The notes under the pieces are model-generated. The model was not told the origin of the DNA. It did not search any database and saw only the letters and a list, made by a program, of their open reading frames with translations. The translations under genes were made by a program, and so were the position numbers. Positions 1-46,716 of a stretch of DNA of 64,000 nucleotides are shown here, in pieces. Source of the DNA: a virus. Location of the stretch: positions 47,630 through 111,629 of IMG/VR virus record IMGVR_UViG_3300033233_000014, one strand, 5' to 3'. Every line of letters begins with the position of its first letter. Position 1 is the stretch's first letter.

Positions 1-1273
1 CGCCGTACTTGGCGAGCTTCTGGGCGTTCGTGAGCACCGTGTCCCGCGGGTTGAGCGTCGCCGTGTGCGGCACGGTGTCGAACGGGATGACCTCGGCCTC
101 GTGGTTCTTCCGCAGGATGGCCGACGCGATGAGCGCCGCCACGTCCACGCACCGCGCCACCGTCGTCGCCCCCACGCCCCGCGCGCCCGTGATCGGCGAG
201 GACATCGAGCCCGACACGTCGACGCAGACGTAGACCTTCCCCTCAAGCGCCGGCACGTTCTCCGTGGCGACCTCGAGCGCATCCTGCAGCGCCTCCGTGA
301 CCGCCTTCGGGATCCGCCCCTCGATGAACTGGCCCTTCGCGTCCCGCACCTGCCCCGTGGTCGCGAGATAGGAGACGAGCAACTGGTACGGGAACACCTT
401 GGCCTTCCGAATCGTCTCCGGGTCGCGGAGCTTCCCCGCGATCTCCGCGGTGAGCCCCTCGACCTCGAAGACGCCCTTGCGGGCGTAGTTGTTGAGGTTG
501 ATCCGGGTCTGGTGGAACCAGCCGCGCCGGGCCACCGCCACCCAATGCTCCCGGGTGAGCGGCAGGCTGGTCAGCATCTGCATCGGCACGTCCGGCGCGT
601 CCTTGCCCGCCGGATCCTTCTTGAACGCCTCGTACTCCCGGATGGCCGCTGGCAGCCGCGGATCGTCGCCCGCGACCTTCCCGATGAGCCAGCCGTAGAG
701 CGCCGTCGCCGCCTCGCCCATCGGCTTCGGCCGGGCCAACTTGATGATGTCCCCGAGCGACGGGTTGGTGCCCACGCTGTCCCGCAGGAGGACGTGGGGC
801 CGCCGGACTGCGAACCAGGCGTGGATGAGCCGCCGGACGACGCCCTTGAGCGCCCGGTGCTTGCCCATCTTGCCGCTTCGCAGGATCTGGACGACGTTGC
901 GGAGCATCTTCCCGTTCGTGACAACGTGCGGCCACGCCCGCTCGAACCACTTCGCGCCCTCCGCCCCCTGGTTGCGGAGCCACGCGAGCAGGACGGCCGG
1001 CATGTCCTTCATGAAGCCGCGCTGCCGGGCGTAGACCGCCACCTTGGCGACGAACTCGGGCGTCACGTCGACGTGCTTGAGCAGGATGAGGACGGTGTCG
1101 AGTTGCGCCTCGCCGCTGGCGTAGAACGCCTCGCCGAGGCAGCCCGTGGCCGCCAACTGGGCGAGCGCGTGCCGCGGGGTGAGCGTGTACGCCAGCCCGC
1201 CGGCCTCGTTGCGATCGGTCGTCTCGGGCGGGGTGGCCCCCCGCCGGGACTGGAACAGGGACTTGTTTGCCAT
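1..1273 (-). CDS. rsr: Ro60/Rsr-like TROVE-domain RNA-binding protein with vWA domain (3' end runs off window)
   Basis: Hand translation from ATG at 1273 (AAGGAGG SD): MANKSLFQS...NEAGGLAY...HALAQLAATGC...FMKDMPAVLLA...KVFPYQLL...YVCVDVSGSM (vWA MIDAS). Absent from the ORF track because it has no stop in the window. Confidence 0.92.
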   Translation of the reverse strand, partial: MANKSLFQSRRGATPPETTDRNEAGGLAYTLTPRHALAQLAATGCLGEAFYASGEAQLDTVLILLKHVDVTPEFVAKVAVYARQRGFMKDMPAVLLAWLRNQGAEGAKWFERAWPHVVTNGKMLRNVVQILRSGKMGKHRALKGVVRRLIHAWFAVRRPHVLLRDSVGTNPSLGDIIKLARPKPMGEAATALYGWLIGKVAGDDPRLPAAIREYEAFKKDPAGKDAPDVPMQMLTSLPLTREHWVAVARRGWFHQTRINLNNYARKGVFEVEGLTAEIAGKLRDPETIRKAKVFPYQLLVSYLATTGQVRDAKGQFIEGRIPKAVTEALQDALEVATENVPALEGKVYVCVDVSGSMSSPITGARGVGATTVARCVDVAALIASAILRKNHEAEVIPFDTVPHTATLNPRDTVLTNAQKLAKYG

Positions 1274-1354: not shown

Positions 1355-1429
1355 TGGGGTGACCGGCGAGAGTCGCACTCGCGCGGCGAGAGTCACAGTC
1401 TCGTGCCCTACTGTTAGGCGACGGTCACC
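1355..1429 (-). tRNA. tRNA-His(GUG)
   Basis: CGAGA-CT GTG AC-TCTCG; 8-bp acceptor with G-1:C73; CCA encoded; T-loop TGCGACT. Confidence 0.9.
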
Positions 1430-1451
1430 ATCGTCGCGTCGATCCGCGGGC

Positions 1452-1526
1452 TGGAGCTGAAGGTGGGATTTGCACCCACATAGCCCGCCTTACGAGAGCG
1501 GTGCATCGCTGTTCTGCCACTTCAGC
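1452..1526 (-). tRNA. tRNA-Thr(CGU)
   Basis: CCGCT-CT CGT AA-GGCGG; CCA; T-loop TGCAAAT. Confidence 0.88.
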
Positions 1527-1529
1527 ATC

Positions 1530-1603
1530 TGGGGCCCAAGGGCGGGATCGCACCGCCGCTGGCGAGGTACAGGCTCGCCGTGCTGCTGCTACACCACTCG
1601 GGC
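1530..1603 (-). tRNA. tRNA-Thr(UGU), C33 variant
   Basis: GCGAG-CC TGT AC-CTCGC; CCA; T-loop TGCGATC. Confidence 0.8.
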
Positions 1604-1679
1604 TGGAGCCACCGGCGGGAATCGGACCCGCGACCTCCTCCTTACCAAGGAGGCGCTCTTCCATCTGAGCTACAGCGGC
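1604..1679 (-). tRNA. tRNA-Thr(GGU)
   Basis: CCTCC-TT GGT AA-GGAGG; CCA. Confidence 0.92.
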
Positions 1680-1753
1680 TGGCTGCCCCGGTACGATTCG
1701 AACGTACACGGCGAGGGTCAAAGCCTCGCGGCCTACCATTAGCCGACAGGGCA
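1680..1753 (-). tRNA. tRNA-Gln(UUG)
   Basis: CGAGG-CT TTG AC-CCTCG; U1:A72; CCA. Confidence 0.92.
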
Positions 1754-1780
1754 GAAGTCGCCGAAGACAGTCGGGCGCGC

Positions 1781-1846
1781 TGGACTGCGGGGTATCCCTC
1801 CCTCGACTCCCGCTTCTCGGCGGAAGCCGAGGTAGGGATCCCGCAG
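1781..1846 (-). ncRNA. CCA-terminated long hairpin RNA (candidate)
   Basis: CTGCGGG...CCCGCAG-T-CCA closing a nearly continuous rod. Confidence 0.5.
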
Positions 1847-1849
1847 ATC

Positions 1850-1924
1850 TGGAGCGGCCAGCGGGTTTCGCACCCGCGACTTCCAGGTTGGGAACCTGGC
1901 GCTCTACTACTGAGCTACGGCCGC
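1850..1924 (-). tRNA. tRNA-Gly(CCC)
   Basis: CCAGG-TT CCC AA-CCTGG; U73-CCA; T-loop TGCGAAA. Confidence 0.9.
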
Positions 1925-2106
1925 ATGCATGCGCCAGAGACAGCTGGCGCCCCCTGGCCCGCGTATCGCCGCAGCGCCAACGAGAGCCCCTCGTGAGCAC
2001 CGCTACGCATCACCGTCGTGCGTTGGCCCCGTGTGAATCTTGGATCGTGAAGTCGACGGCCGTCAGCGAACACTTGGGGGTTCCAAGGTTGCTGACCCCA
2101 CAGAAC

Positions 2107-2180
2107 TGGAGCGGGCCGCGAGAATCGAACTCGCGTCCTCGGGTTGGAGGCCCGACGCCTTGCCACTAGACGAGGCCCGC
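2107..2180 (-). tRNA. tRNA-Gly(UCC), C33 variant
   Basis: TCGGG-CC TCC AA-CCCGA; GCG acceptor start, U73-CCA. Confidence 0.88.
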
Positions 2181-2240
2181 ATCGTGCGCCGGCCTGCCTC
2201 AGCATGCCAGCGCCTCTCGAGACAGCGAGAGCCTGAAGAG

Positions 2241-2331
2241 CCGCCTCTCCCCCGACTGTTCTGCCGTTAAACTACTCGCGCGTCTACTGCACAGGGGAGG
2301 ATTCGAACCTCCATCTTTCTAAGGGGGACGG
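2241..2331 (-). ncRNA. circularly permuted tRNA-like RNA (YrlA-type effector domain)
   Basis: 5'-3' order: T arm GGAGG-TTCGAAT-CCTCC, loop-closed acceptor-like stem, D arm GTTT-AACGGCA-GAAC; ends pair CCGTC/GGCGG. Confidence 0.65.
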
Positions 2332-2335
2332 GATC

Positions 2336-2410
2336 TGGAGCGGGTAGTGGGTTTCGCACCCACGGCCTCCACCTTGGCAAAGTGGCGCTCTACTACTGAG
2401 CTACACCCGC
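2336..2410 (-). tRNA. tRNA-Gly(GCC)
   Basis: CCACT-TT GCC AA-GGTGG; CCA; T-loop TGCGAAA. Confidence 0.9.
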
Positions 2411-2417
2411 GATCTTC

Positions 2418-2503
2418 TGGCGGAGGGGCGGGGACTCGAACCCCGGACGGCGTGAGCCGCGCTCGCCTTCCAAGCGAGTTCCTCGTCCGGCCGGACCCCC
2501 TCC
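2418..2503 (-). tRNA. tRNA-Ser(GGA)
   Basis: CTCGC-TT GGA AG-GCGAG; long variable arm; G73-CCA; atypical D arm. Confidence 0.85.
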
Positions 2504-2645
2504 ACTCGACCAGGGACCGGAGTTCCGATGAAAGGAAGCCTGCCTCGGCTGGTCGAACCCGAGGCTTGCCCAGGCGTCGCGCCTGATCGGATTGTCGGGC
2601 ACTTCCGGCGCACCCGACGGCGGGCCGAAGGGAATGCCCGGCCGC

Positions 2646-2731
2646 TGGCGGAAGAGGAGGGAATCGAACCCCCACGGGAGTTACCCGGACGGTTTTCGGG
2701 ACCGTTGCGCTAGCCGTTACGCCACTCTTCC
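2646..2731 (-). tRNA. tRNA-Ser(CGA), C33 variant
   Basis: ACGGT-CC CGA AA-ACCGT; long variable arm; G73-CCA. Confidence 0.87.
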
Positions 2732-2735
2732 GAGG

Positions 2736-2811
2736 TGGTGGACCCGGCGGGAGTTGAACCCGCGATCTCCGGAATGCCATTCCGGCGTTCTTCCATCTGA
2801 ACTACGAGCCC
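2736..2811 (-). tRNA. tRNA-Ala(GGC)
   Basis: CCGGA-AT GGC AT-TCCGG; G3:U70; ACCA. Confidence 0.92.
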
Positions 2812-2887
2812 TGGTGGACCTGGCCGGACTCGAACCGGCGATCTCCGCGTTGCGAACGCGGCGCTCTTCCAACTGAGCTACAAGCCC
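2812..2887 (-). tRNA. tRNA-Ala(CGC)
   Basis: CCGCG-TT CGC AA-CGCGG; G3:U70; ACCA. Confidence 0.93.
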
Positions 2888-2890
2888 ATC

Positions 2891-2965
2891 TGGTGGACGC
2901 ACCCGGCTTTGCTCCGGGCACCCGACCGTGCAAGGGTCGTGTGATGCTGACTTCACCATGCGCCC
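2891..2965 (-). tRNA. tRNA-Ala(UGC)
   Basis: CGACC-CT TGC AC-GGTCG; G3:U70; divergent T-loop AGCAAAG. Confidence 0.85.
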
Positions 2966-2968
2966 AGC

Positions 2969-3052
2969 GGATGCGTGCTACCGTTACACCACAAGACCCG
3001 TGCTCCCGAAGGAGTCGAACTTCTTGGCGGGAGTCGAACCCGCACTTCATCC
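2969..3052 (-). ncRNA. circularly permuted tRNA-like RNA opened at the anticodon
   Basis: GGATG-AAGT-T arm GCGGG TTCGACT CCCGC-CAAGA...TCTTG-TG-D arm GTGT AACGGTA GCAC-G-CATCC. Confidence 0.7.
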
Positions 3053-3055
3053 TTG

Positions 3056-3130
3056 TGGAGATCCCGGCAGGACTTTCACCTGCGTCGTTCACCCTTTGCA
3101 GGGGTGCGCCTGATTCTCGGCCACGGGATC
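3056..3130 (-). tRNA. tRNA-Cys(GCA)
   Basis: CACCC-CT GCA AA-GGGTG; U73-CCA; T-loop TGAAAGT. Confidence 0.87.
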
Positions 3131-3134
3131 GTGC

Positions 3135-3208
3135 TGGCAGGAGCGCAGGGAGTTGAACCCTGGACCTCAGATTTGGAGGCTGAGATGTTTCCGTTACACC
3201 ACACTCCT
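3135..3208 (-). tRNA. tRNA-Trp(CCA)
   Basis: loop CT CCA AA; A1:U72, G73; one mismatch at 31:39. Confidence 0.85.
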
Positions 3209-3213
3209 TCTGC

Positions 3214-3289
3214 TGGCGACCTCGGCAGGACTCGAACCTGCAGCCTCCGGGGTAGAAACCCGGCGCCGTTCCTGTTCGGCTACGAGGCC
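3214..3289 (-). tRNA. tRNA-Arg(UCU)
   Basis: CCGGG-TT TCT AC-CCCGG; CCA. Confidence 0.88.
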
Positions 3290-3292
3290 ATC

Positions 3293-3377
3293 TGGTCTTC
3301 GGGGGGAGAGTCGAACTCCCACGGGTTTCCCCACTAGGTTCTGAGCCTAGCGCGACTGCCAGTTCCGCCACCCGAAG
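3293..3377 (-). tRNA. tRNA-Leu(CAG)
   Basis: CTAGG-CT CAG AA-CCTAG; long variable arm; ACCA. Confidence 0.9.
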
Positions 3378-3381
3378 ATGC

Positions 3382-3456
3382 TGGTACGGGCACGGGGTAT
3401 CGATCCCCGTTTCTCGCGCTGAAAACGCGATGTCTTAGCCAGTAGACGATGCCCGC
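3382..3456 (-). tRNA. tRNA-Glu(UUC)
   Basis: TCGCG-TT TTC AG-CGCGA; CCA. Confidence 0.87.
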
Positions 3457-3459
3457 ATC

Positions 3460-3542
3460 TGGTCCGCGCGGCAGGAGTCGAACCTGCACGCCGAAGCACC
3501 TGTTCTTGAGACAGGCGGGTCTGCCATTTCCCCCACGCGCGG
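3460..3542 (-). tRNA. tRNA-Leu(CAA)
   Basis: CCTGT-CT CAA GA-ACAGG; variable arm; ACCA. Confidence 0.9.
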
Positions 3543-3546
3543 ATGC

Positions 3547-3640
3547 TGGCGGAGAGGATGGGTGTCGAACCCACCGTCGCCGTTGAGGCGACCCTGGTTT
3601 AGCAAACCAGTCCAGCTAACCAACGATCTGGCTCCTCTCC
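3547..3640 (-). tRNA. tRNA-Ser(GCU)
   Basis: CTGGT-TT GCT AA-ACCAG; long variable arm; GCCA. Confidence 0.9.
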
Positions 3641-3643
3641 ATC

Positions 3644-3729
3644 TGGTGCGCGAGAGAGGACTCGAACCTCCATGCCTTTCGGCACAAGACCCTCAATCTT
3701 GCGTGTCTACCAAATTTCACCACTCGCGC
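3644..3729 (-). tRNA. tRNA-Leu(GAG)
   Basis: CAAGA-TT GAG GG-TCTTG; variable arm; ACCA. Confidence 0.93.
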
Positions 3730-3805
3730 TGGTCGGCCGAGGAGGGTTCGAACCTCCGACCTTCTGCGTGTAAGGCAGACGCGCTTCCGACTGTGCCACC
3801 GGCCG
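3730..3805 (-). tRNA. tRNA-Val(UAC)
   Basis: TCTGC-CT TAC AC-GCAGA; ACCA. Confidence 0.92.
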
Positions 3806-3813
3806 ATCTTCTC

Positions 3814-3887
3814 TGGCGGTGCGTACGGGAGTTGAACCCGTACTAGCAGATCGACAATCTGCCGTGCTGCCGCTACACCAACGCACC
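3814..3887 (-). tRNA. tRNA-Asp(GUC)
   Basis: GCAGA-TT GTC GA-TCTGC; GCCA. Confidence 0.9.
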
Positions 3888-3890
3888 CGC

Positions 3891-3965
3891 TGGTTGCCCC
3901 GCGAGGATTCGAACCTCAGATTTCCTGGTTCAGAGCCAGGCGTCCTACCGTTGGACGACAGGGCA
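3891..3965 (-). tRNA. tRNA-Gln(CUG)
   Basis: CCTGG-CT CTG AA-CCAGG; CCA. Confidence 0.93.
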
Positions 3966-3966
3966 G

Positions 3967-4039
3967 TTGGAGCGGCGGGAGTTGCACCCGCGTCTCGACT
4001 GTATAGGAGTCGCGCCTGAGACTACTCGGCCACGCTCCG
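3967..4039 (-). tRNA. tRNA-Ile(UAU), atypical (C33, C1/A72 mismatch, no encoded CCA)
   Basis: CGACT-CC TAT AC-AGTCG; acceptor GGAGCG/CGCTCC; T-loop TGCAACT. Confidence 0.72.
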
Positions 4040-4115
4040 TGGTCGTTCGGGAAGGAATCGAACCTTCCTGACCTACCTTATCAGGGTAGTGCCTGAACCA
4101 CTAGGCTACCGAACG
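4040..4115 (-). tRNA. tRNA-Ile(GAU)
   Basis: CTACC-CT GAT AA-GGTAG; ACCA. Confidence 0.92.
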
Positions 4116-4288
4116 AGAGCGACTCGGGCCGGCTTTGGCAGGCACTTGGGTAGCGCCGCACAGACCGGCGGGGTGAAACCCGGATCAGCGCCAGCAGAGC
4201 CGTACGGACGTGCCGCCGTTGATGCTGGACCACCACTCTACGATGAGGCTTCGGTCTGATGACCGCGCCTTCCCCTTCTCCGCGTCGC

Positions 4289-4365
4289 TGGTAGATCCGA
4301 TAGGACTTGAACCTATGGCCTCCTGCGTGTGAAGCAGGCGCTCTGCGCAACTGAGCTACGGATCT
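4289..4365 (-). tRNA. tRNA-Val(CAC)
   Basis: CCTGC-TT CAC AC-GCAGG; ACCA. Confidence 0.9.
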
Positions 4366-4368
4366 ATC

Positions 4369-4502
4369 GGTGACGACGCAAAGGATGTCGTTGCCGTCCG
4401 CACCGGATCGATGAAGCCGGCGTGTCGCTAGGCACCGGAGCAGGCGCACTGTCCATCTCCGGCCGAGTCTCTGCCGAGGCATCGTCCTCGTTCGTCGTCA
4501 CC
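4369..4502 (-). ncRNA. Y-RNA-like rod (candidate 4)
   Basis: perfect 10-bp terminal stem GGTGACGACG/CGTCGTCACC; GACGAACG fits the bacterial Y RNA GNCGAAN(0-1)G motif; opposite strand CTTTG. Confidence 0.55.
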
Positions 4503-4580
4503 TGGTCGGACTGGCCGGATTCGAACCGGCGGCCTCCTGAACCCCATTCAGGCGCGCTAGCCAGCCTGCGCTACAGCCCG
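4503..4580 (-). tRNA. tRNA-Pro(GGG)
   Basis: CCTGA-AT GGG GT-TCAGG; C1:G72; ACCA. Confidence 0.93.
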
Positions 4581-4583
4581 AGC

Positions 4584-4653
4584 GAGAACGGCCCGACAAG
4601 GGACGCCGAGAGTTCAGTTTAGATGTACTCCCAGCAGCATCCGGATCGTTCCC
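4584..4653 (-). ncRNA. minimal Y RNA (Ro-binding stem plus short loop)
   Basis: shares CGGATGCTGCTGGGAGTACA / CTCTCGGC..CTTGTCGG with two neighbours; termini pair. Confidence 0.7.
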
Positions 4654-4729
4654 TGGTCGCGCGGGTCGGGTTCGAACCGACACCCTTCGGCTCCCAAAGC
4701 CGACGCTCCACCGCTTGAGCTTCCGCACG
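4654..4729 (-). tRNA. tRNA-Pro(UGG)
   Basis: TCGGC-TT TGG GA-GCCGA; C1:G72; ACCA. Confidence 0.9.
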
Positions 4730-4732
4730 CAC

Positions 4733-4852
4733 ACGAGGCCCCGGACAAGAGAGTCGAGAGGAATGCCTTCCAGAGGTTGCCCTCTCAGGCGAGCCCTTGC
4801 GGGCTTCAAGATTTGAACTTGGTGTACTCCCAACAGCATCCCGATGCCTCGC
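4733..4852 (-). ncRNA. Y RNA with T-arm plus GNRA-hairpin effector domain
   Basis: same stem module (GGGATGCTGTTGGGAGTACA / CTCTCGACTCTCTTGTCCGG); internal CAAG-TTCAAAT-CTTG and two GCAA-capped hairpins. Confidence 0.7.
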
Positions 4853-4930
4853 TGGTCGGGCTAGCAGGATTTGAACCTGCGGTCTCTTGCTCCCGAAGCA
4901 AGCGCGTTGACCAGGCTACGCTACAGCCCG
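4853..4930 (-). tRNA. tRNA-Pro(CGG)
   Basis: CTTGC-TT CGG GA-GCAAG; ACCA. Confidence 0.93.
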
Positions 4931-4933
4931 AAT

Positions 4934-5085
4934 GAAGACGACCGACAAGAGAGCCGAGAGAACCGGGTTGCCCCGGAATCCTGGCGCTCTACCGTTGAGC
5001 TACCGCACGATCTATTCGCGCGAGTGAGGAGTCGAACCTCACGACCTCCAGGGCCATGTACTCCCAGCGGCATCCGGCCGCCTTC
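4934..5085 (-). ncRNA. yrlA: YrlA-type Y RNA (Ro-binding stem plus permuted tRNA-like domain)
   Basis: stem module GCCGGATGCCGCTGGGAG / CTCTCGGCTCTCTTGTCGGTC enclosing T arm GTGAGG TTCGACT CCTCAC, closed acceptor stem and D arm GCTC AACGGTA GAGC; Ro60 gene in the same unit. Confidence 0.85.
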
Positions 5086-5160
5086 TGGTGTTCCGGGCAG
5101 GAGTCGCACCTGCAGCCGTCTCGTTAGGACCGAGTCGCGCTTCTGTTGCGCCACCGGAAC
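5086..5160 (-). tRNA. tRNA-Arg(CCU)
   Basis: CTCG-GT CCT AA-CGAG; ACCA; T-loop TGCGACT. Confidence 0.8.
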
Positions 5161-5165
5161 ATTGC

Positions 5166-5243
5166 TGGTTGCGCGGGCGAGACTTGAACTCGCAGCCTTC
5201 GGCTTCGGAGGCCGACGCTCTATCCAAGTTGAGCTACCGCACA
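5166..5243 (-). tRNA. tRNA-Arg(CCG)
   Basis: TCGGC-CT CCG AA-GCCGA; ACCA. Confidence 0.92.
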
Positions 5244-5247
5244 GCAG

Positions 5248-5862
5248 TTACAGACCCGCGAGCATCGCGGGGGAAAAGACCGACTCAGACTTGACCTTCC
5301 GACGAACCACTCGGAAGCCCGCCTTGCGGGCCGCCCGATCCTTGCGGCAGTCGACTTCCCGCTGCCTCGGATCCTTGTGGTACGACCCGTCGAACTCCAC
5401 GATCACCTTCACGTCGAGAAGCGCGAGGTCGAAGACGAACGCCCCAATCTCGAACTCGAACTCGAACCGCCTTCCGGCCGCAACGAGCGTCTCCCGAAGC
5501 GCCGCGTACTTCCACTCCTCCCGGCGCTTGAGCGTCTCGGCCGGCGAGAAGAGGTTGTGTGCGTTCTCAAGCCCGGAGCGACGCGCAGCCTCGCGCCGCT
5601 CCTCGCTCACGCTCCCCTTGCTGGCACAAGCACGAGAGCAGAACCGCTTAGACCGACGGCGGGTGGACGTGCTGAACACGATTCCGCAGACCGGGCACGT
5701 CATCTCGAATGTCTTCGCCTTCTTCGGCGCGTTGCCCGCGACCGCTGTGCATGAGAGTCCGCAGAAGAACCGGCGGCCAAGCCTTCGGGCACGGTTGACT
5801 TCCCCGATCCGCTTCTCGACTTCCTTCCCACAGCGGGCGCACCGAACAATGGTAGTCGCCAC
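5248..5862 (-). CDS. DUF559/Vsr-like endonuclease with N-terminal zinc-ribbon repeats (putative free-standing homing endonuclease)
   Basis: CxxC...FCxxxC twice, then FDLA...IVEFDGSYH...DCRKD...GFRVVR; GTG start chosen downstream of the tmRNA. Confidence 0.8.
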   Translation of the reverse strand: MATTIVRCARCGKEVEKRIGEVNRARRLGRRFFCGLSCTAVAGNAPKKAKTFEMTCPVCGIVFSTSTRRRSKRFCSRACASKGSVSEERREAARRSGLENAHNLFSPAETLKRREEWKYAALRETLVAAGRRFEFEFEIGAFVFDLALLDVKVIVEFDGSYHKDPRQREVDCRKDRAARKAGFRVVRRKVKSESVFSPAMLAGL

Positions 5863-5914
5863 GCCCCCATCGTAGCCGCGATGTAGGCGTGGCGCAATAC
5901 CCGATGTAGGCGAT

Positions 5915-6287
5915 TGGAGGCGGCGAGATTTGCACTCGCGTCTCAAAGACCTTCGCCCGAAGCCTCTACGCGCGTGTCCCTGCTTCTCGTCTTTCCTCGG
6001 GCGCAGGACAGCCCATCGTCAGGCGTCTCTTGCCAAGCACCCAGTCTTTCCTGGGTGTCAGACCCTGGTGCCTTCCCTGCGCCGGGCCGTGCGCAAGGCG
6101 GGGTTGCTCGAGGTCGGCTAGGCCGCGAGCCGCAGGCCCCGAGCCGCGTGAGCGGCCCGGAAGTCCACGGTGGTCACCTTGAGGTGACTGGCTGATGAAT
6201 TGTGGTCCGCTTGTTGACGGGGCCTGCTGACCAACCCCGGCGCGCATCCCCGGACTCCGATCTCCGATCGAAAACTAGTTCGCCCCC
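5915..6287 (-). ncRNA. ssrA: tmRNA
   Basis: 5' GGGGGCGAA..TTCGA; 3' T arm plus CGCCTCC-A with G3:U70; internal frame ending ...RGLRLAA-TAG (6192-6118); 373 nt. Confidence 0.92.
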
Positions 6288-6291
6288 ATGC

Positions 6292-6367
6292 TGGTACTCC
6301 CGAGGGGATTCGAACCCCACGTTTCCACCGTGAGAGGGTGGCGTCCTGCCGGCTAGACGACGGGAGC
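6292..6367 (-). tRNA. tRNA-Glu(CUC)
   Basis: CCACC-CT CTC AC-GGTGG; CCA. Confidence 0.93.
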
Positions 6368-6466
6368 ATTGCGGCGAGGCGGCGCCGCGCCGGAGAGGGC
6401 CACGAGAGTTGCACCCGCGCGCCAGCAAGCATGGCATGCCTGCTGGCGTCATCTCTGATCCTTCCC

Positions 6467-6502
6467 TGGTGGATCCGGTGGGACTCGAACCCACGCGAAC
6501 CC
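6467..6502 (-). ncRNA. 36-nt tRNA minihelix with alanine identity (candidate)
   Basis: GGGTTCG-C-GTGGG-TTCGAGT-CCCAC-CGGATCC-ACCA: 7-bp acceptor with G3:U70, T arm, A73, CCA. Confidence 0.65.
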
Positions 6503-6508
6503 GTGTTA

Positions 6509-6584
6509 TGGTTGCCCGGGAGGGATTCGCACCCTCAGCCTCGTCCTTAAGAGGGACTTGCTCCGCTAGTTGAGCTACCGAGCA
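6509..6584 (-). tRNA. tRNA-Lys(CUU)
   Basis: GTCC-CT CTT AA-GGAC; ACCA; T-loop TGCGAAT. Confidence 0.87.
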
Positions 6585-6596
6585 TCTGAAAGTCTC

Positions 6597-6672
6597 TGGC
6601 TCCACGGGTAGGGCTCGAACCTACATCATCCTGGGTAACAGCCAGGCGCTCAGCCAGTTGAGCTACCGTGGA
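6597..6672 (-). tRNA. tRNA-Asn(GUU)
   Basis: CCTGG-CT GTT AC-CCAGG; GCCA. Confidence 0.93.
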
Positions 6673-6677
6673 CCGGA

Positions 6678-6752
6678 TGGTCACGCCGAGAGGAGTCGAA
6701 CCTCTTTGGCAGGATCCGTAGTCCTGTGCCTGATCCGATCGGCCACGGCGTG
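6678..6752 (-). tRNA. tRNA-Arg(ACG)
   Basis: CAGGA-CT ACG GA-TCCTG; ACCA. Confidence 0.92.
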
Positions 6753-6798
6753 AATGCAGACGCGGTGTTCGCGCACCGCGCCCACTCGAACGTCTCGT

Positions 6799-6814
6799 CG
6801 AACTGTCAGAGAAC
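6799..6814 (-). promoter_or_regulatory. boxA-like antitermination element
   Basis: GTTCTCTGACAGTTCG after a hairpin, just downstream of a promoter; near-copy at 7356-7371. Confidence 0.55.
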
Positions 6815-6859
6815 CTCGGTCAAGTCGCGCCTCGGCGCTCGACCACGCACGAAACCTGG

Positions 6860-6888
6860 ATTCTACCACATCAGCGAATCTTTGTCAA
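6860..6888 (-). promoter_or_regulatory. sigma70-type promoter of the tRNA array
   Basis: TTGACA-17 bp-TAGAAT with extended -10 TG. Confidence 0.85.
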
Positions 6889-6893
6889 GACGC

Positions 6894-6981
6894 TGGTGGG
6901 CCGTGGTGGAGTTGAACCACTTGCTCGCCGCTCCCCATATCAGAGCGACCGCTTTACAGGCGGCCGGGGAGAACACGTCCC
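6894..6981 (-). tRNA. tRNA-Tyr(GUA) lacking a canonical D arm
   Basis: GCCGC-CT GTA AA-GCGGT; T arm and ACCA normal; only about 10 nt between acceptor and anticodon stems; long variable region. Confidence 0.75.
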
Positions 6982-7054
6982 GGTGGGCCCGGAGGGAGTC
7001 GGACCCTCGCCTTCCGGTTAAAAGCCGGCTGCTCGGCCGCTGAGCTACGGACCC
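6982..7054 (-). tRNA. tRNA-Lys(UUU)
   Basis: CCGG-CT TTT AA-CCGG; ends ACC abutting tRNA-Tyr. Confidence 0.87.
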
Positions 7055-7124
7055 GCGTGGACTACGCGGCCCGTTTCGCCAGCGCGGCGCCGGCCCCGGT
7101 ATAGCCCACCGCCGCGGCGCGCCC

Positions 7125-7199
7125 TGGTTGCCGCGGCTGGGGTCGAACCAGCAGCCCCCCGCATGTCAAACGGGTGCTCTTCCGCTGAGCTACGCGACA
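7125..7199 (-). tRNA. tRNA-Val(GAC)
   Basis: CCCGT-TT GAC AT-GCGGG; ACCA. Confidence 0.9.
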
Positions 7200-7207
7200 C
7201 CCGATGC

Positions 7208-7282
7208 TGGTAGCGGGGGCGAGGATCGAACTCGCGAACTCCAGCTTATGAGGCTGGCATGATACCGCTTCACCACCCCGCG
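7208..7282 (-). tRNA. tRNA-Met(CAU), initiator-like acceptor
   Basis: CCAGC-CT CAT AA-GCTGG; CGCGGGG acceptor with C1/U72 mismatch. Confidence 0.88.
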
Positions 7283-7965: not shown

Positions 7966-8174
7966 CAGGCCGCCACCGCGATCTCGGCGATGATCTTGTG
8001 GCACTTGACGCAGGCCACCCGCACGACGCCCTGCCCCACCACGTAGGACGCCTCGACGGCGGCCCGTGGATGGCAGCGCCCGTGGAAGAACATCTCGGGG
8101 TGGGCGTGTCCATCCGCACAGTCCAGGCACCCGCCGCCCATCGCCTTGTCGAGTTGCTTCTTGTTCAGCGCCAT
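7965..8174 (-). CDS. small Cys/His-rich hypothetical protein
   Basis: MALNKKQLD...CLDC...CVKC; coupled start/stop. Confidence 0.65.
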   Translation of the reverse strand: MALNKKQLDKAMGGGCLDCADGHAHPEMFFHGRCHPRAAVEASYVVGQGVVRVACVKCHKIIAEIAVAA

Positions 8175-8833
8175 CAGCGTCCTCCTCGCGCCAGCCTGTT
8201 CGGCACGATGGGCTGGTGCAGCCAATGTTCATCCGTCTGGACATGCTCCGCGCGCACGAACTTCGCCACCGATCGCTCGAAGTCCGCATCGGCGAACTCG
8301 TCGGACACGCGCACGACCACGCCCTCGATCTCGTCGCCGAAGGTCGGCCCCGCGCTCCGGATGAGGCCCGCGGTGAAGCGATCGACGGCTGCGCCGTCCG
8401 GCAGTTTGAACTGCGCCAGCGTCGGGACGACCTGCAAGTCGAGGCCGAGCGCGAGGCCGATGGTATCGGCCACACTCAGCCAGACGTGCCGCACCTCGTC
8501 CCGCGCCCCGAAGATGAGGAAGTAGGACGGGAGATCCCAGTACGCGATCGAGTGCCGCGCGTAGAGCCACTCCCCGAAGAGGGACACGCCGGCCGGGATC
8601 CGATGCCGAACTTCCGCCCACAGCGCCTTCGCCCGATTGAAGGAGGCATGCGTCGGCGGCCCCTCGTGCGACCGCGCGAAGATGCCCTCGCGCGTGAAGC
8701 AGCAGTTCGACCCGTCCATCTTCTCGGAGAAGTGGAGCAGCCGCCCCGCGAGGGCGCCCGCCGACTCGAGCCGGAGATCGTCCCGCGCCTCGGCGGGGCT
8801 CGACGGCAGATGCGCGATCCGCGGATACTTCAC
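8174..8833 (-). CDS. ATP-dependent RNA ligase, Rnl2-like family
   Basis: KYPRIAHLP N-terminus, motif I EKMDGSN, FGEW, EGVVVR, AKFV. Confidence 0.87.
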   Translation of the reverse strand: MKYPRIAHLPSSPAEARDDLRLESAGALAGRLLHFSEKMDGSNCCFTREGIFARSHEGPPTHASFNRAKALWAEVRHRIPAGVSLFGEWLYARHSIAYWDLPSYFLIFGARDEVRHVWLSVADTIGLALGLDLQVVPTLAQFKLPDGAAVDRFTAGLIRSAGPTFGDEIEGVVVRVSDEFADADFERSVAKFVRAEHVQTDEHWLHQPIVPNRLARGGR

Positions 8834-9015
8834 GCCGGCCCCGTCGGTTCCCAGACATCGGTGCGCGTCCCGTCCTGCTCGAGGTAGACCTCCTTCGTCG
8901 CCCCGCACCGGCAGGTGAAGAAGTAGTCACACGCCTGCGCGGCACCCTTCCCGTCCTCGTGCCACGCATGCGCGTGCGCCGGCTTCGGCAGGGGCTTCTT
9001 GGCCTTCGAGTTCAT
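8830..9015 (-). CDS. hypothetical protein
   Basis: short coupled ORF MNSKAKK... Confidence 0.55.
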   Translation of the reverse strand: MNSKAKKPLPKPAHAHAWHEDGKGAAQACDYFFTCRCGATKEVYLEQDGTRTDVWEPTGPA

Positions 9016-46210: not shown

Positions 46211-46449
46211 TCGGCCCCCATCAGGACGCTGGCGACGCGCTCCTCGTCCGACTTGGTCATCGGTGGCTGGGGGCGACGGGGGAACACCGGATCGACCGAG
46301 ACGGCGGTGTCGGAGCGGCACGGGCCGGCGTATGGCGGGGCGTCGACGGCCTCCACACGGACGTGCAGTCGCACGGTTCGCCCGCACAAGATCCGCAGCC
46401 GGTCGCGCCAGGCGAAGTGGATCTCGACCTTGGTGAAGAACGTCTCCAT
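46207..46449 (-). CDS. hypothetical protein
   Basis: AGGAGG SD; WRDRLRIL. Confidence 0.6.
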   Translation of the reverse strand: METFFTKVEIHFAWRDRLRILCGRTVRLHVRVEAVDAPPYAGPCRSDTAVSVDPVFPRRPQPPMTKSDEERVASVLMGAE

Positions 46450-46485
46450 TAGGAACTTCCTCCTACACGACGAGGTCGAGGGCGC

Positions 46486-46716
46486 TCATGTTCTCTTCGC
46501 GCGCCGATCTGCGAGTTTCTTCTTGGCGAGAGCGATGCGCTGGCATCTCGCGCAGGAGATCTTTCCTGCTTCCACAAGCAATCGGTGGGTCGCGTTGTGT
46601 GGGTCAAGGAGCCAGAAAAACGTCCTCTCGAACGCCGTAAGTTTGGCGCCCTTCCTCGCCGGCCTGACCGTCGTTCCCCAGTCCCTGACGATCTCCTCAC
46701 GCCGCGCCTTCGGCAT
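46486..46716 (-). CDS. basic hypothetical protein
   Basis: ORF. Confidence 0.45.
   Translation of the reverse strand: MPKARREEIVRDWGTTVRPARKGAKLTAFERTFFWLLDPHNATHRLLVEAGKISCARCQRIALAKKKLADRRAKRT

What the first reader, a model, noticed from the sequence alone, without database searches (positions are those of the whole stretch)
4584..5085. Three paralogous Y RNAs with one Ro-binding stem and three different effector domains, alternating with the three tRNA-Pro genes
Seen: 4934-5085, 4733-4852 and 4584-4653 all carry 5' GGAUGCYGYUGGGAGUACA and 3' CUCUCGRC...CUUGUC inside paired termini, and each begins at the nucleotide after a tRNA CCA. Their interiors differ: a full permuted tRNA (T arm, closed acceptor, D arm, as in YrlA); a T arm plus two GCAA-capped hairpins with no D arm; and a bare 13-nt loop. 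Known: Y RNAs are modular tethers made of a Ro-binding stem and an effector domain. Inference: one Ro60 is programmed with interchangeable RNA adaptors, and the minimal one may act as a gate or competitor. I do not know of a described graded series like this.
Basis: partly seen in the sequence, partly recalled or inferred. Interest (0 to 1): 0.92.

Follow-up and report, generated by a model that had tools for sequence, protein, structure and literature searches.

The report
Phage Y RNAs inside tRNA operon
Three small RNA genes wedged between tRNA genes of an uncultured phage are real relatives of bacterial Y RNAs, the partner RNAs of the ring protein Ro60. The phage encodes its own Ro60 next door and has five such RNAs, and this many-RNA layout is common beside related Ro60 genes.

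Summary
The three spacers 4931-5085, 4730-4852 and 4581-4653 (minus strand) each start right after an encoded tRNA CCA. They share one two-helix closing module and enclose three different interiors: a permuted tRNA, a T arm plus two GCAA hairpins, and a bare loop.

The Y RNA reading is supported.
- A full-length Ro60 gene lies 3.3-3.8 kb downstream on the same strand (window <1-1273).
- The shared module aligns end to end with the closing stems of Rfam YrlA.
- A covariance model of the module finds 82 copies beside Ro60 genes in 18 related viral contigs plus this phage, and 278 copies in 80 bacterial Ro60 loci. All lie on the Ro60 strand, and covariation is strong.

Two corrections:
- The phage has five such RNAs, not three. 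Two more lie just downstream of Ro60, outside the window.
- A series of short, middle and tRNA-like forms is not peculiar to this phage. It is usual for this Ro60 clade.

What is less described is that the genes are embedded in a tRNA operon, so tRNA processing would set their ends. Hairpin-only forms are also abundant.

Ro60 binding, expression and distinct effector roles are untested. This scan has noted similar phage Ro60/RNA arrays on other DNA.

The parts
4931..5085 (-). Y RNA 1 (long form). It has the outer stem, the AUGCC / UCUCUUGU internal loop, helix GCUGGGAG/CUCUCGGC and UACAU. Its interior is a permuted tRNA-like domain (T arm, 7-bp closed acceptor-like stem, D arm) plus a GCAA hairpin.
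   Evidence: Fold. Rfam YrlA 31.2 bits, E 1.6e-4, below the gathering score of 69. Model R2 29.1 bits, E 1.6e-4.
4730..4852 (-). Y RNA 2 (middle form). It has the same closing module. Its interior is a T-loop hairpin (CAAG-UUCAAAU-CUUG) and two GCAA-capped hairpins, with no D arm.
   Evidence: Fold. R2 36.4 bits, E 2.8e-6. No Rfam match.
4581..4653 (-). Y RNA 3 (minimal form). It has the closing module capped by a 13-nt loop.
   Evidence: Fold. R2 55.7 bits, E 7e-11.
1..1273 (-). Ro60 (Rsr) gene, N-terminal 424 codons. The 570-aa ORF runs on to 439 bases before the window's first base (G000:C1:47190-48902).
   Evidence: Full-length match to D. radiodurans Rsr 2NVO at E 4e-21 and to phiLo Ro60 9L5Y at 1.4e-7. 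Pfam vWA_Ro60 53 bits. PHROG 850 at 1e-40. 50-66% identity to thousands of annotated Ro60 proteins.
5086..5160 (-). tRNA-Arg(CCU). Its encoded CCA abuts the first base of Y RNA 1.
4853..4930 (-). tRNA-Pro(CGG). Its 5' end would define the 3' end of Y RNA 1, and its CCA abuts Y RNA 2.
4654..4729 (-). tRNA-Pro(UGG), between Y RNA 2 and Y RNA 3.
4503..4580 (-). tRNA-Pro(GGG), directly after Y RNA 3.
1355..7282 (-). Co-oriented array of 40 tRNA genes and a tmRNA (5914-6287) in which the three Y RNA genes sit.
6860..6888 (-). Promoter-like site (TTGACA, 17 nt, TG-TAGAAT; 11 of 12 matches) inside the array, upstream of the Y RNAs and Ro60.
   Evidence: This is a consensus match only.
8174..8908 (-). 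RNA ligase gene upstream of the array (context for an RNA repair and quality-control island).
   Evidence: Pfam RNA_ligase PF09414, E 3e-25.

Best explanation
The three elements are genes for YrlA-type Y RNAs, the small RNAs that dock on the ring protein Ro60. They belong to a set of five in this phage.

Shown by computation:
- All five share one closing module. It consists of a terminal stem ending in CG(G), a 5-nt AUGCN strand facing a 7-8-nt strand that ends in CUUG, a second helix with a conserved G.U pair, and then UACAU.
- The module is homologous to the Ro60-binding end of YrlA.
- It is conserved with compensatory changes in hundreds of copies that always lie beside a Ro60 gene and on its strand.

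Inferred:
- The RNAs are transcribed as part of the tRNA operon.
- RNase P cutting at the 5' end of the next tRNA makes their 3' ends, leaving 3 nt. 3' maturation of the preceding CCA-encoding tRNA makes their 5' ends.
- The phage Ro60 binds the shared module.
- The distal parts differ in what they recruit. The permuted-tRNA heads (Y1 and the second downstream copy) would engage tRNA-recognising factors or PNPase, as proposed for YrlA and Yrn1. The hairpin-only form can only occupy or gate Ro60.
- Together with 40+ tRNAs, a tmRNA and an RNA ligase, the particle probably serves RNA quality control or turnover during infection.
For: - Ro60 gene on the same strand, 3.3-3.8 kb downstream. This fits the published rule of within 4 kb and on the same strand (PMC4201824).
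- Rfam YrlA aligns end to end to the downstream long copy at 45.1 bits, E 4e-9 for that stretch. It puts CCGGAUGC...UAC and CCCUUGUCGG on the YrlA stem 1 / loop / stem 2 columns with high posterior probability. It hits Y1 at 31.2 bits.
- Model R2 with filters off, over the window, the 8 kb before it and the Mx1 locus, finds only the five copies here and two in Myxococcus phage Mx1. The next hit has E 0.41.
- 82 of 82 viral hits and 278 of 278 bacterial hits lie on the Ro60 strand.
- Covariation: 84.6% of cells paired against 58.5% in shuffles and 32-48% when partners are slid. All 17 pairs show double changes.
- Starting from the RNA pattern alone, 16 IMG/VR contigs were R2-positive. 11 of the 15 tested carry Ro60, while none of the 64 R2-negative pattern hits does within the fetched stretch.
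- In the phages with tRNA arrays the RNAs abut tRNA ends within a few nucleotides.
Against: - No expression or binding data exist. No RNA run holds the stretch.
- The Rfam YrlA gathering score (69 bits) is not reached by any copy, and Y2 and Y3 match no Rfam family.
- The published 5' motif GNCGAAN0-1G reads CGGAUG here (A to G), although the closing pair is kept as G.U.
- The covariation alignments were fitted to the model, which favours the structure.
- One complete 198-kb phage genome has an R2-positive short RNA but no detected Ro60 relative.
- Different roles for the different interiors rest on analogy only.
Confidence: 0.8

Rival explanations
1. The RNAs are real Ro60 ligands, but the paralogues are largely redundant. 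The interiors are stability or folding modules that drift freely, and copy number serves dosage rather than a set of different adaptors.
For: Interiors vary widely in length and sequence among 82 viral copies, with no obvious one-to-one orthology. Many loci carry several short copies in a row. Deleting the T arm of D. radiodurans Yrn1 did not change complex assembly (PMC4201824).
Against: The size distribution is bimodal (37 copies of 85 nt or less, 34 of more than 115 nt). Long forms keep tRNA T and D motifs across distant loci, and Chen et al. report that these are nearly invariant in YrlA. This phage keeps two long, two middle and one minimal form.
Confidence: 0.3
2. The elements act without Ro60. 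For example they could be tRNA mimics that soak up host tRNA-modifying or tRNA-cleaving enzymes, or direct PNPase ligands.
For: Y1 and the downstream long copy carry tRNA-like T, acceptor and D parts. phiLo Yrl RNAs bind PNPase on their own in EMSA (PMC12135203). One complete phage has a short copy without a detected Ro60.
Against: The part that is conserved and shared by all copies is the YrlA closing module, not the tRNA-like part. 45% of viral copies have no tRNA-like part at all. Linkage to Ro60 is near-universal.
Confidence: 0.1
3. They are only structured spacers or processing signals of the tRNA precursor and are degraded after tRNA release.
For: They fill tRNA-tRNA spacers exactly. Other spacers in the array also fold (for example 4366-4502).
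Against: The same module occurs in tandem with no tRNA nearby in several viral loci (L009, L011, L013, L014, L016). In the bacterial loci it lies in tandem directly after rsr. It is homologous to YrlA.
Confidence: 0.04

Closest known systems
YrlA and YrlB of Salmonella Typhimurium and Mycobacterium smegmatis (Chen et al. 2013/2014, PMC4201824; Rfam RF02553; YrlA structure, bioRxiv 10.1101/312249)
   Same: They have a terminal stem carrying the Ro60 site and the conserved UA kink nucleotides (UACAU here). YrlA carries a permuted tRNA-like head (T arm, closed acceptor stem, D arm). A second, shorter Y RNA has at most a T arm. They are encoded beside rsr on its strand. In M. smegmatis both come from one precursor, and RNase P cuts YrlA, which like Y1 has a 7-bp acceptor-like stem.
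   Different: There are five genes here, not two. Three sit between tRNA genes 3.3-3.8 kb upstream of Ro60, so tRNA processing would set their ends. The motif reads CGGAUG rather than CGAAUG. One member is a bare hairpin. Scores are below the Rfam threshold.
Thermus phage phiLo Ro60 with Yrl1 and Yrl2 (NAR 2025, PMC12135203)
   Same: A phage-encoded Ro60 with more than one phage-encoded Y-like RNA upstream of the gene. Binding to Ro60 and a ternary complex with host PNPase were shown there.
   Different: phiLo has two RNAs, and I saw no tRNA array mentioned for it. Its Ro60 is only distantly related (E 1.4e-7).
Mycobacteriophage and Streptomyces phage YrlA RNAs (Chen et al. 2014)
   Same: Phage Ro60 with a YrlA-type RNA nearby. 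Rfam YrlA gives sub-threshold hits upstream of Ro60 in Bxz1, and directly after a tRNA-Ile in Streptomyces phage WhereRU.
   Different: The closing module of this clade is distinct in sequence. Model R2 finds nothing in those two loci.
Deinococcus radiodurans Yrn1 and the Rsr-Y RNA-PNPase complex (RYPER)
   Same: A modular tether: the stem binds Rsr and the distal part binds an effector. Y RNA can also gate Rsr.
   Different: Chen et al. judge it a separate lineage of Y RNA with a metazoan-like helix.

Membership tests
YrlA (Rfam RF02553) | Score at or above the curated gathering score (69 bits) | tested here: not met
   Y1 31.2 bits. The downstream long copy 45.1 bits. Y2 and Y3 have no match.
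YrlA (Chen et al. 2014 criteria) | Encoded within about 4 kb of a Ro60 gene on the same strand | tested here: met
   Ro60 starts at window 1273 (minus). Y3 ends at 4581 and Y1 starts at 5085. All lie on the minus strand.
YrlA (Chen et al. 2014 criteria) | GNCGAAN0-1G motif near the 5' end | tested here: inconclusive
   The motif reads (G)CCGGAUG, CGGGAUG and CCGGAUG here, with the first A replaced by G. The pair it forms with the U after CUUG is kept as G.U. Most homologues read CGAAUG: this pair is A-U in 66 copies, G.U in 5 and G-C in 7.
YrlA (Chen et al. 2014 criteria) | tRNA-like domain: T arm, closed acceptor-like stem, D arm | tested here: met
   Met for Y1 and for the downstream long copy. 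Not met for Y2 (T-loop hairpin only) or Y3 (none). Those two resemble the YrlB kind, for which no model exists.
Y RNA (general) | 5' and 3' ends pair into a long stem that holds the Ro60 site; the structure is conserved | tested here: met
   Folds. Covariation over 82 homologues: 84.6% paired against 58.5% shuffled, with 17 of 17 pairs showing double changes.
Y RNA (general) | Bound by Ro60 in vivo or in vitro | not testable with these tools
   No RNA or binding data. No RNA run holds the stretch.
Ro60 / Rsr protein | TROVE (HEAT-repeat ring) domain followed by a Ro60-type vWA domain, about 500-570 aa | tested here: met
   vWA_Ro60 scores 53.2 bits against a cut-off of 27.7. Pfam TROVE scores only 18.8 against 23. 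However, residues 17-530 align to Rsr 2NVO residues 24-533 at E 4e-21, and relatives at 50-57% identity carry PF05731.

The most novel reading that the evidence does not exclude
Ro60 in this clade, phage and bacterial, works with a whole panel of 3-9 adaptor RNAs. They share one docking handle and carry different heads: a permuted tRNA, a T arm only, GNRA hairpins, or nothing. Each would direct or block the ring for a different job.

In tRNA-rich phages the panel is built into the tRNA operon, so it is made and trimmed together with the phage tRNAs. There it would police or recycle tRNAs damaged by host anticodon nucleases, alongside the phage RNA ligase and tmRNA.
Probability: 0.25. Interest if true: 0.8.

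Novelty: new variant of a known kind. Interest (0 to 1): 0.55.

Why it matters
What the distal domains of bacterial Y RNAs do is an open question. The papers I could read describe only one or two Y RNAs per organism.

This locus and its relatives give a natural series: one Ro60 and one constant handle, with heads running from a full tRNA mimic to none. Copy numbers reach 9 per viral locus in these searches.

Myxococcus phage Mx1 is a cultured relative with two model-positive copies and a tractable host. That makes head-specific partners, gating by head-less RNAs, and maturation by RNase P directly testable.

It also adds Ro60/Y RNA particles to the set of RNA-care functions (tRNAs, tmRNA, RNA ligase) that large phages carry.

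Tried and rejected
- The exact 19-mer in IMG/VR gave only one hit, a chance match inside a coding region with no tRNAs.
- The search for related loci with the single Ro60 protein found nothing. An alignment of seven Ro60s was needed.
- Pfam TROVE on the whole contig gave no hit at the default threshold. The gene was found only at a relaxed threshold.
- MAFFT misaligned the 3' halves of the RNAs, so models were built iteratively.
- Model R2 finds nothing in mycobacteriophage Bxz1 or Streptomyces phage WhereRU.
- No RNA holder was listed for the stretch. Laying contigs of three sediment runs gave no informative variation in the RNAs.
- I tested whether Y1's tRNA-like halves derive from the neighbouring tRNA-Pro genes. 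The best matches tie among Pro(UGG), Gly(CCC) and Arg(CCG), so this is not supported.
- The terminator scan cannot see long-range stems and gave nothing useful.
- The reviews PMC10870794 and PMC6047535 are not held, and the supplementary tables of Chen et al. 2014 are not held. I therefore cannot exclude that larger Y RNA sets are mentioned there.

Full report
**1. What is there**

The window is the last 64 kb of a 111.6-kb IMG/VR viral contig with 67.8% G+C, estimated 73% complete. Positions 1355-7282 hold 40 tRNA genes and a tmRNA (5914-6287), all on the minus strand.

Three spacers hold the reported elements: 4931-5085, 4730-4852 and 4581-4653. They lie between tRNA-Arg(CCU), tRNA-Pro(CGG), tRNA-Pro(UGG) and tRNA-Pro(GGG). 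Each upstream tRNA ends in an encoded CCA, and the next base begins the element. Each element ends 3 nt before the next tRNA.

The shared 19-mer occurs three times against 0.03 expected. All three fold into the same closing module:
- a terminal stem of different sequence in each copy;
- AUGCN facing a 7-8-nt strand that ends in CUUG;
- a helix GYUGGGAG/CUCUCGRC, in which the Y and R positions change together;
- then UACA.

**2. The Ro60 gene**

Pfam TROVE at the default threshold found nothing in the contig. At a relaxed threshold it pointed to a 570-codon ORF at G000:C1:47190-48902 on the minus strand. This is window <1-1273, about 80 nt downstream of the last tRNA of the array.

The evidence that this is Ro60:
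- It aligns over its whole length to D. radiodurans Rsr (2NVO, E 4e-21) and to the Thermus phage phiLo Ro60.
- It passes Pfam vWA_Ro60.
- It matches PHROG 850 at 1e-40.
- It is 50-66% identical to thousands of proteins annotated as Ro60.

The three RNAs lie 3.3-3.8 kb upstream on the same strand. This fits the rule that Chen et al. used to call YrlA genes (PMC4201824).

**3. Homology of the shared module**

Rfam YrlA hits the long element at 31.2 bits. I fetched that DNA (L022 = G000:C1:40000-48000) and confirmed both:
- L022:6587-6676(-), middle-sized, with a GCAA hairpin.
- L022:6430-6566(-), with a full T / acceptor-like / D domain.

These correspond to window positions -1043 to -954 and -1200 to -1064.

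For the second copy, Rfam YrlA aligns end to end at 45.1 bits. CCGGAUGC...UAC and CCCUUGUCGG fall on YrlA stem 1, the AUGCu loop, stem 2, CUA and the cUuGucG strand. The module shared by all five RNAs is therefore the Ro60-binding end of YrlA.

One difference stands out. The published GNCGAAN0-1G motif reads CGGAUG here, and the closing A-U pair becomes G.U. No copy reaches Rfam's gathering score of 69 bits.

**4. Relatives and covariation**

The nearest cultured relative by Ro60 is Myxococcus phage Mx1 at 43% identity. An alignment of seven Ro60s retrieved 18 IMG/VR loci with Ro60 at 39-48% identity.

A simple descriptor search already showed several copies of the module per locus, mostly reading CGAAUGC...UACAU...CUUGUCG. 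I then built a covariance model from seven short copies (R1). It found 48 copies. I rebuilt the model from those as R2.

Results with R2:
- It finds 82 copies at E of 0.05 or less, in Mx1 and 16 of the 18 IMG/VR loci besides this phage. All are on the Ro60 strand.
- With filters off over the window, L022 and the Mx1 locus, it finds only the five copies here and two in Mx1. The next hit has E 0.41.
- On the 82-row alignment, 84.6% of cells pair. Shuffled partners give 58.5% and slid partners give 32-48%. All 17 pairs show changes on both sides (for the first round).

The alignment is fitted to the model, which favours the structure, but the margin is large.

One pair in helix 2 is G.U in 54 of 81 copies, next to nearly invariant G-C and A-U pairs. 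UACA is present in 80 of 82 copies. These features look like recognition elements.

**5. The series is a family trait**

Among the 82 viral copies:
- 37 are 85 nt or shorter, and almost all of these are hairpin-only.
- 11 are 86-115 nt.
- 34 are longer. By crude motif matching, 16 of these have both T and D motifs and 11 have a T motif only.

Loci hold up to 9 copies. In phages with tRNA arrays (this one, Mx1, L006, L007, L010, L015, L017, L018) the RNAs abut tRNA ends within a few nucleotides. In others they stand in tandem without tRNAs. In Mx1 the long copy also lies between tRNA-Pro(UGG) and tRNA-Pro(GGG).

In 80 bacterial loci (Acidobacteriota, Massilia, Rhizobiales, Myxococcota and others; Ro60 at 47-53% identity), R2 finds 278 copies. 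All are on the Ro60 strand, and most lie in tandem directly after the gene, up to seven per locus.

Starting from the RNA pattern alone gives the same link. Of 80 pattern-matching IMG/VR stretches, 16 are R2-positive. 11 of the 15 tested contigs carry Ro60. Of the four without it, three are fragments estimated 6-17% complete and one is a complete 198-kb genome. None of the 64 R2-negative stretches shows Ro60.

**6. Mechanism**

Shown by computation: homology to YrlA, linkage to Ro60 on the same strand, a conserved structure, and exact abutment to tRNA ends.

Inferred:
- The RNAs are co-transcribed with the tRNAs. A strong promoter-like site lies at 6860-6888 on the minus strand.
- They are released by RNase P and by tRNA 3' maturation.
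- The phage Ro60 docks on the shared module.
- The heads do different jobs.

Published analogies:
- Y RNAs tether Rsr to PNPase and can gate the ring (PMC4201824; bioRxiv 10.1101/312249).
- M. smegmatis YrlA and YrlB come from one precursor, and RNase P cuts that YrlA, which has a 7-bp acceptor-like stem as Y1 does.
- phiLo Ro60 binds two phage RNAs and forms a complex with host PNPase.

A head-less RNA can only occupy Ro60, so a gate or competitor role is the simplest reading. It is untested.

The surroundings fit a role in RNA care during infection. An RNA ligase lies at 8174-8908, and the array holds the tmRNA and more than 40 tRNAs.

**7. Novelty**

Already published: phage Ro60 genes with Y RNAs, the modular stem-plus-effector design, and pairs made of a tRNA-like and a shorter Y RNA.

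Not found in the papers I could search or read:
- Y RNA genes embedded in tRNA operons with ends set at tRNA boundaries.
- Sets of five to nine per genome.
- Hairpin-only members as the commonest form.

Two key reviews and the supplementary tables of Chen et al. were not available. Other agents of this scan have reported similar handle-sharing RNA arrays beside phage Ro60-like genes on other DNA. I did not test those.

**Verdict**

The finding is real and well read. The copy count is understated (five, not three), and the uniqueness of the series is overstated. It is a new variant of a known kind.

Noticed in passing
L022:6587-6676(-) and L022:6430-6566(-), i.e. G000:C1:46586-46675 and 46429-46565, 954-1200 bases before the window start: These are the fourth and fifth Y RNAs, downstream of Ro60. 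Unlike the three in the tRNA spacers, each terminal stem is followed by a run of 5-6 U (CCCCUACUUUUUUG, UCCGAUCUUUUUGG). Their 3' ends may therefore be made by termination rather than by RNase P.
   Followed up: partly
L022:7130-7185(-), directly after the Ro60 stop, and ORF L022:6664-7116(-): A sequence that repeats the first 14 nt of the fourth Y RNA (GUAGGGGCCGGAUG) and then forms a simple hairpin. It is followed by a 150-aa ORF with CxxC...HNH-like motifs but no Pfam hit. It may be a Y RNA 5' part duplicated or displaced by insertion of a homing endonuclease gene.
   Followed up: no
window 5248-5946 (-): A 232-aa ORF with a DUF559 (Vsr-like endonuclease) domain sits inside the tRNA array, between tRNA-Arg(CCG) and the tmRNA.
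   Followed up: no
window 4366-4502 (-): A 137-nt spacer between tRNA-Val(CAC) and tRNA-Pro(GGG) is closed by a 10-bp terminal stem (GGUGACGACG/CGUCGUCACC). Model R2 and Rfam do not match it. It may be another structured RNA.
   Followed up: no
window 2108-2828 (-); L022:6494-6578; L022:6350-6421: ARAGORN artefacts. It reports a false permuted tmRNA across several tRNAs. It calls a 'tRNA-???' inside the tRNA-like head of the fifth Y RNA. It misses a tRNA with a GAA anticodon loop that Rfam finds at L022:6350-6421.
   Followed up: partly
L176:3355-3424 (contig of 197,921 bases with direct terminal repeats, 100% complete): A short Y RNA of this family (R2 50.5 bits) lies in a complete phage genome in which no relative of this Ro60 was detected. 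The phage may use the host's Ro60, or may have a very divergent one.
   Followed up: no
L025-L104 (80 bacterial loci): Tandem arrays of up to seven R2-positive Y RNAs lie directly downstream of rsr in Acidobacteriota, Massilia, Rhizobiales, Myxococcota and others. There are 278 copies, all on the rsr strand.
   Followed up: partly
window 5003-5024 (-) within Y RNA 1: The 5' strand of the 7-bp acceptor-like stem (CGUGCGG) is identical to that of the neighbouring tRNA-Pro(UGG). However, the tRNA-like halves match Pro(UGG), Gly(CCC) and Arg(CCG) equally well.
   Followed up: yes
L003:461-532 (+) in Myxococcus phage Mx1: A 72-nt spacer between tRNA-Pro(GGG) and tRNA-Ile folds as a long hairpin with AAUGC...GUACAC but lacks the CUUG strand. 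R2 does not call it. It may be a divergent minimal Y RNA.
   Followed up: no
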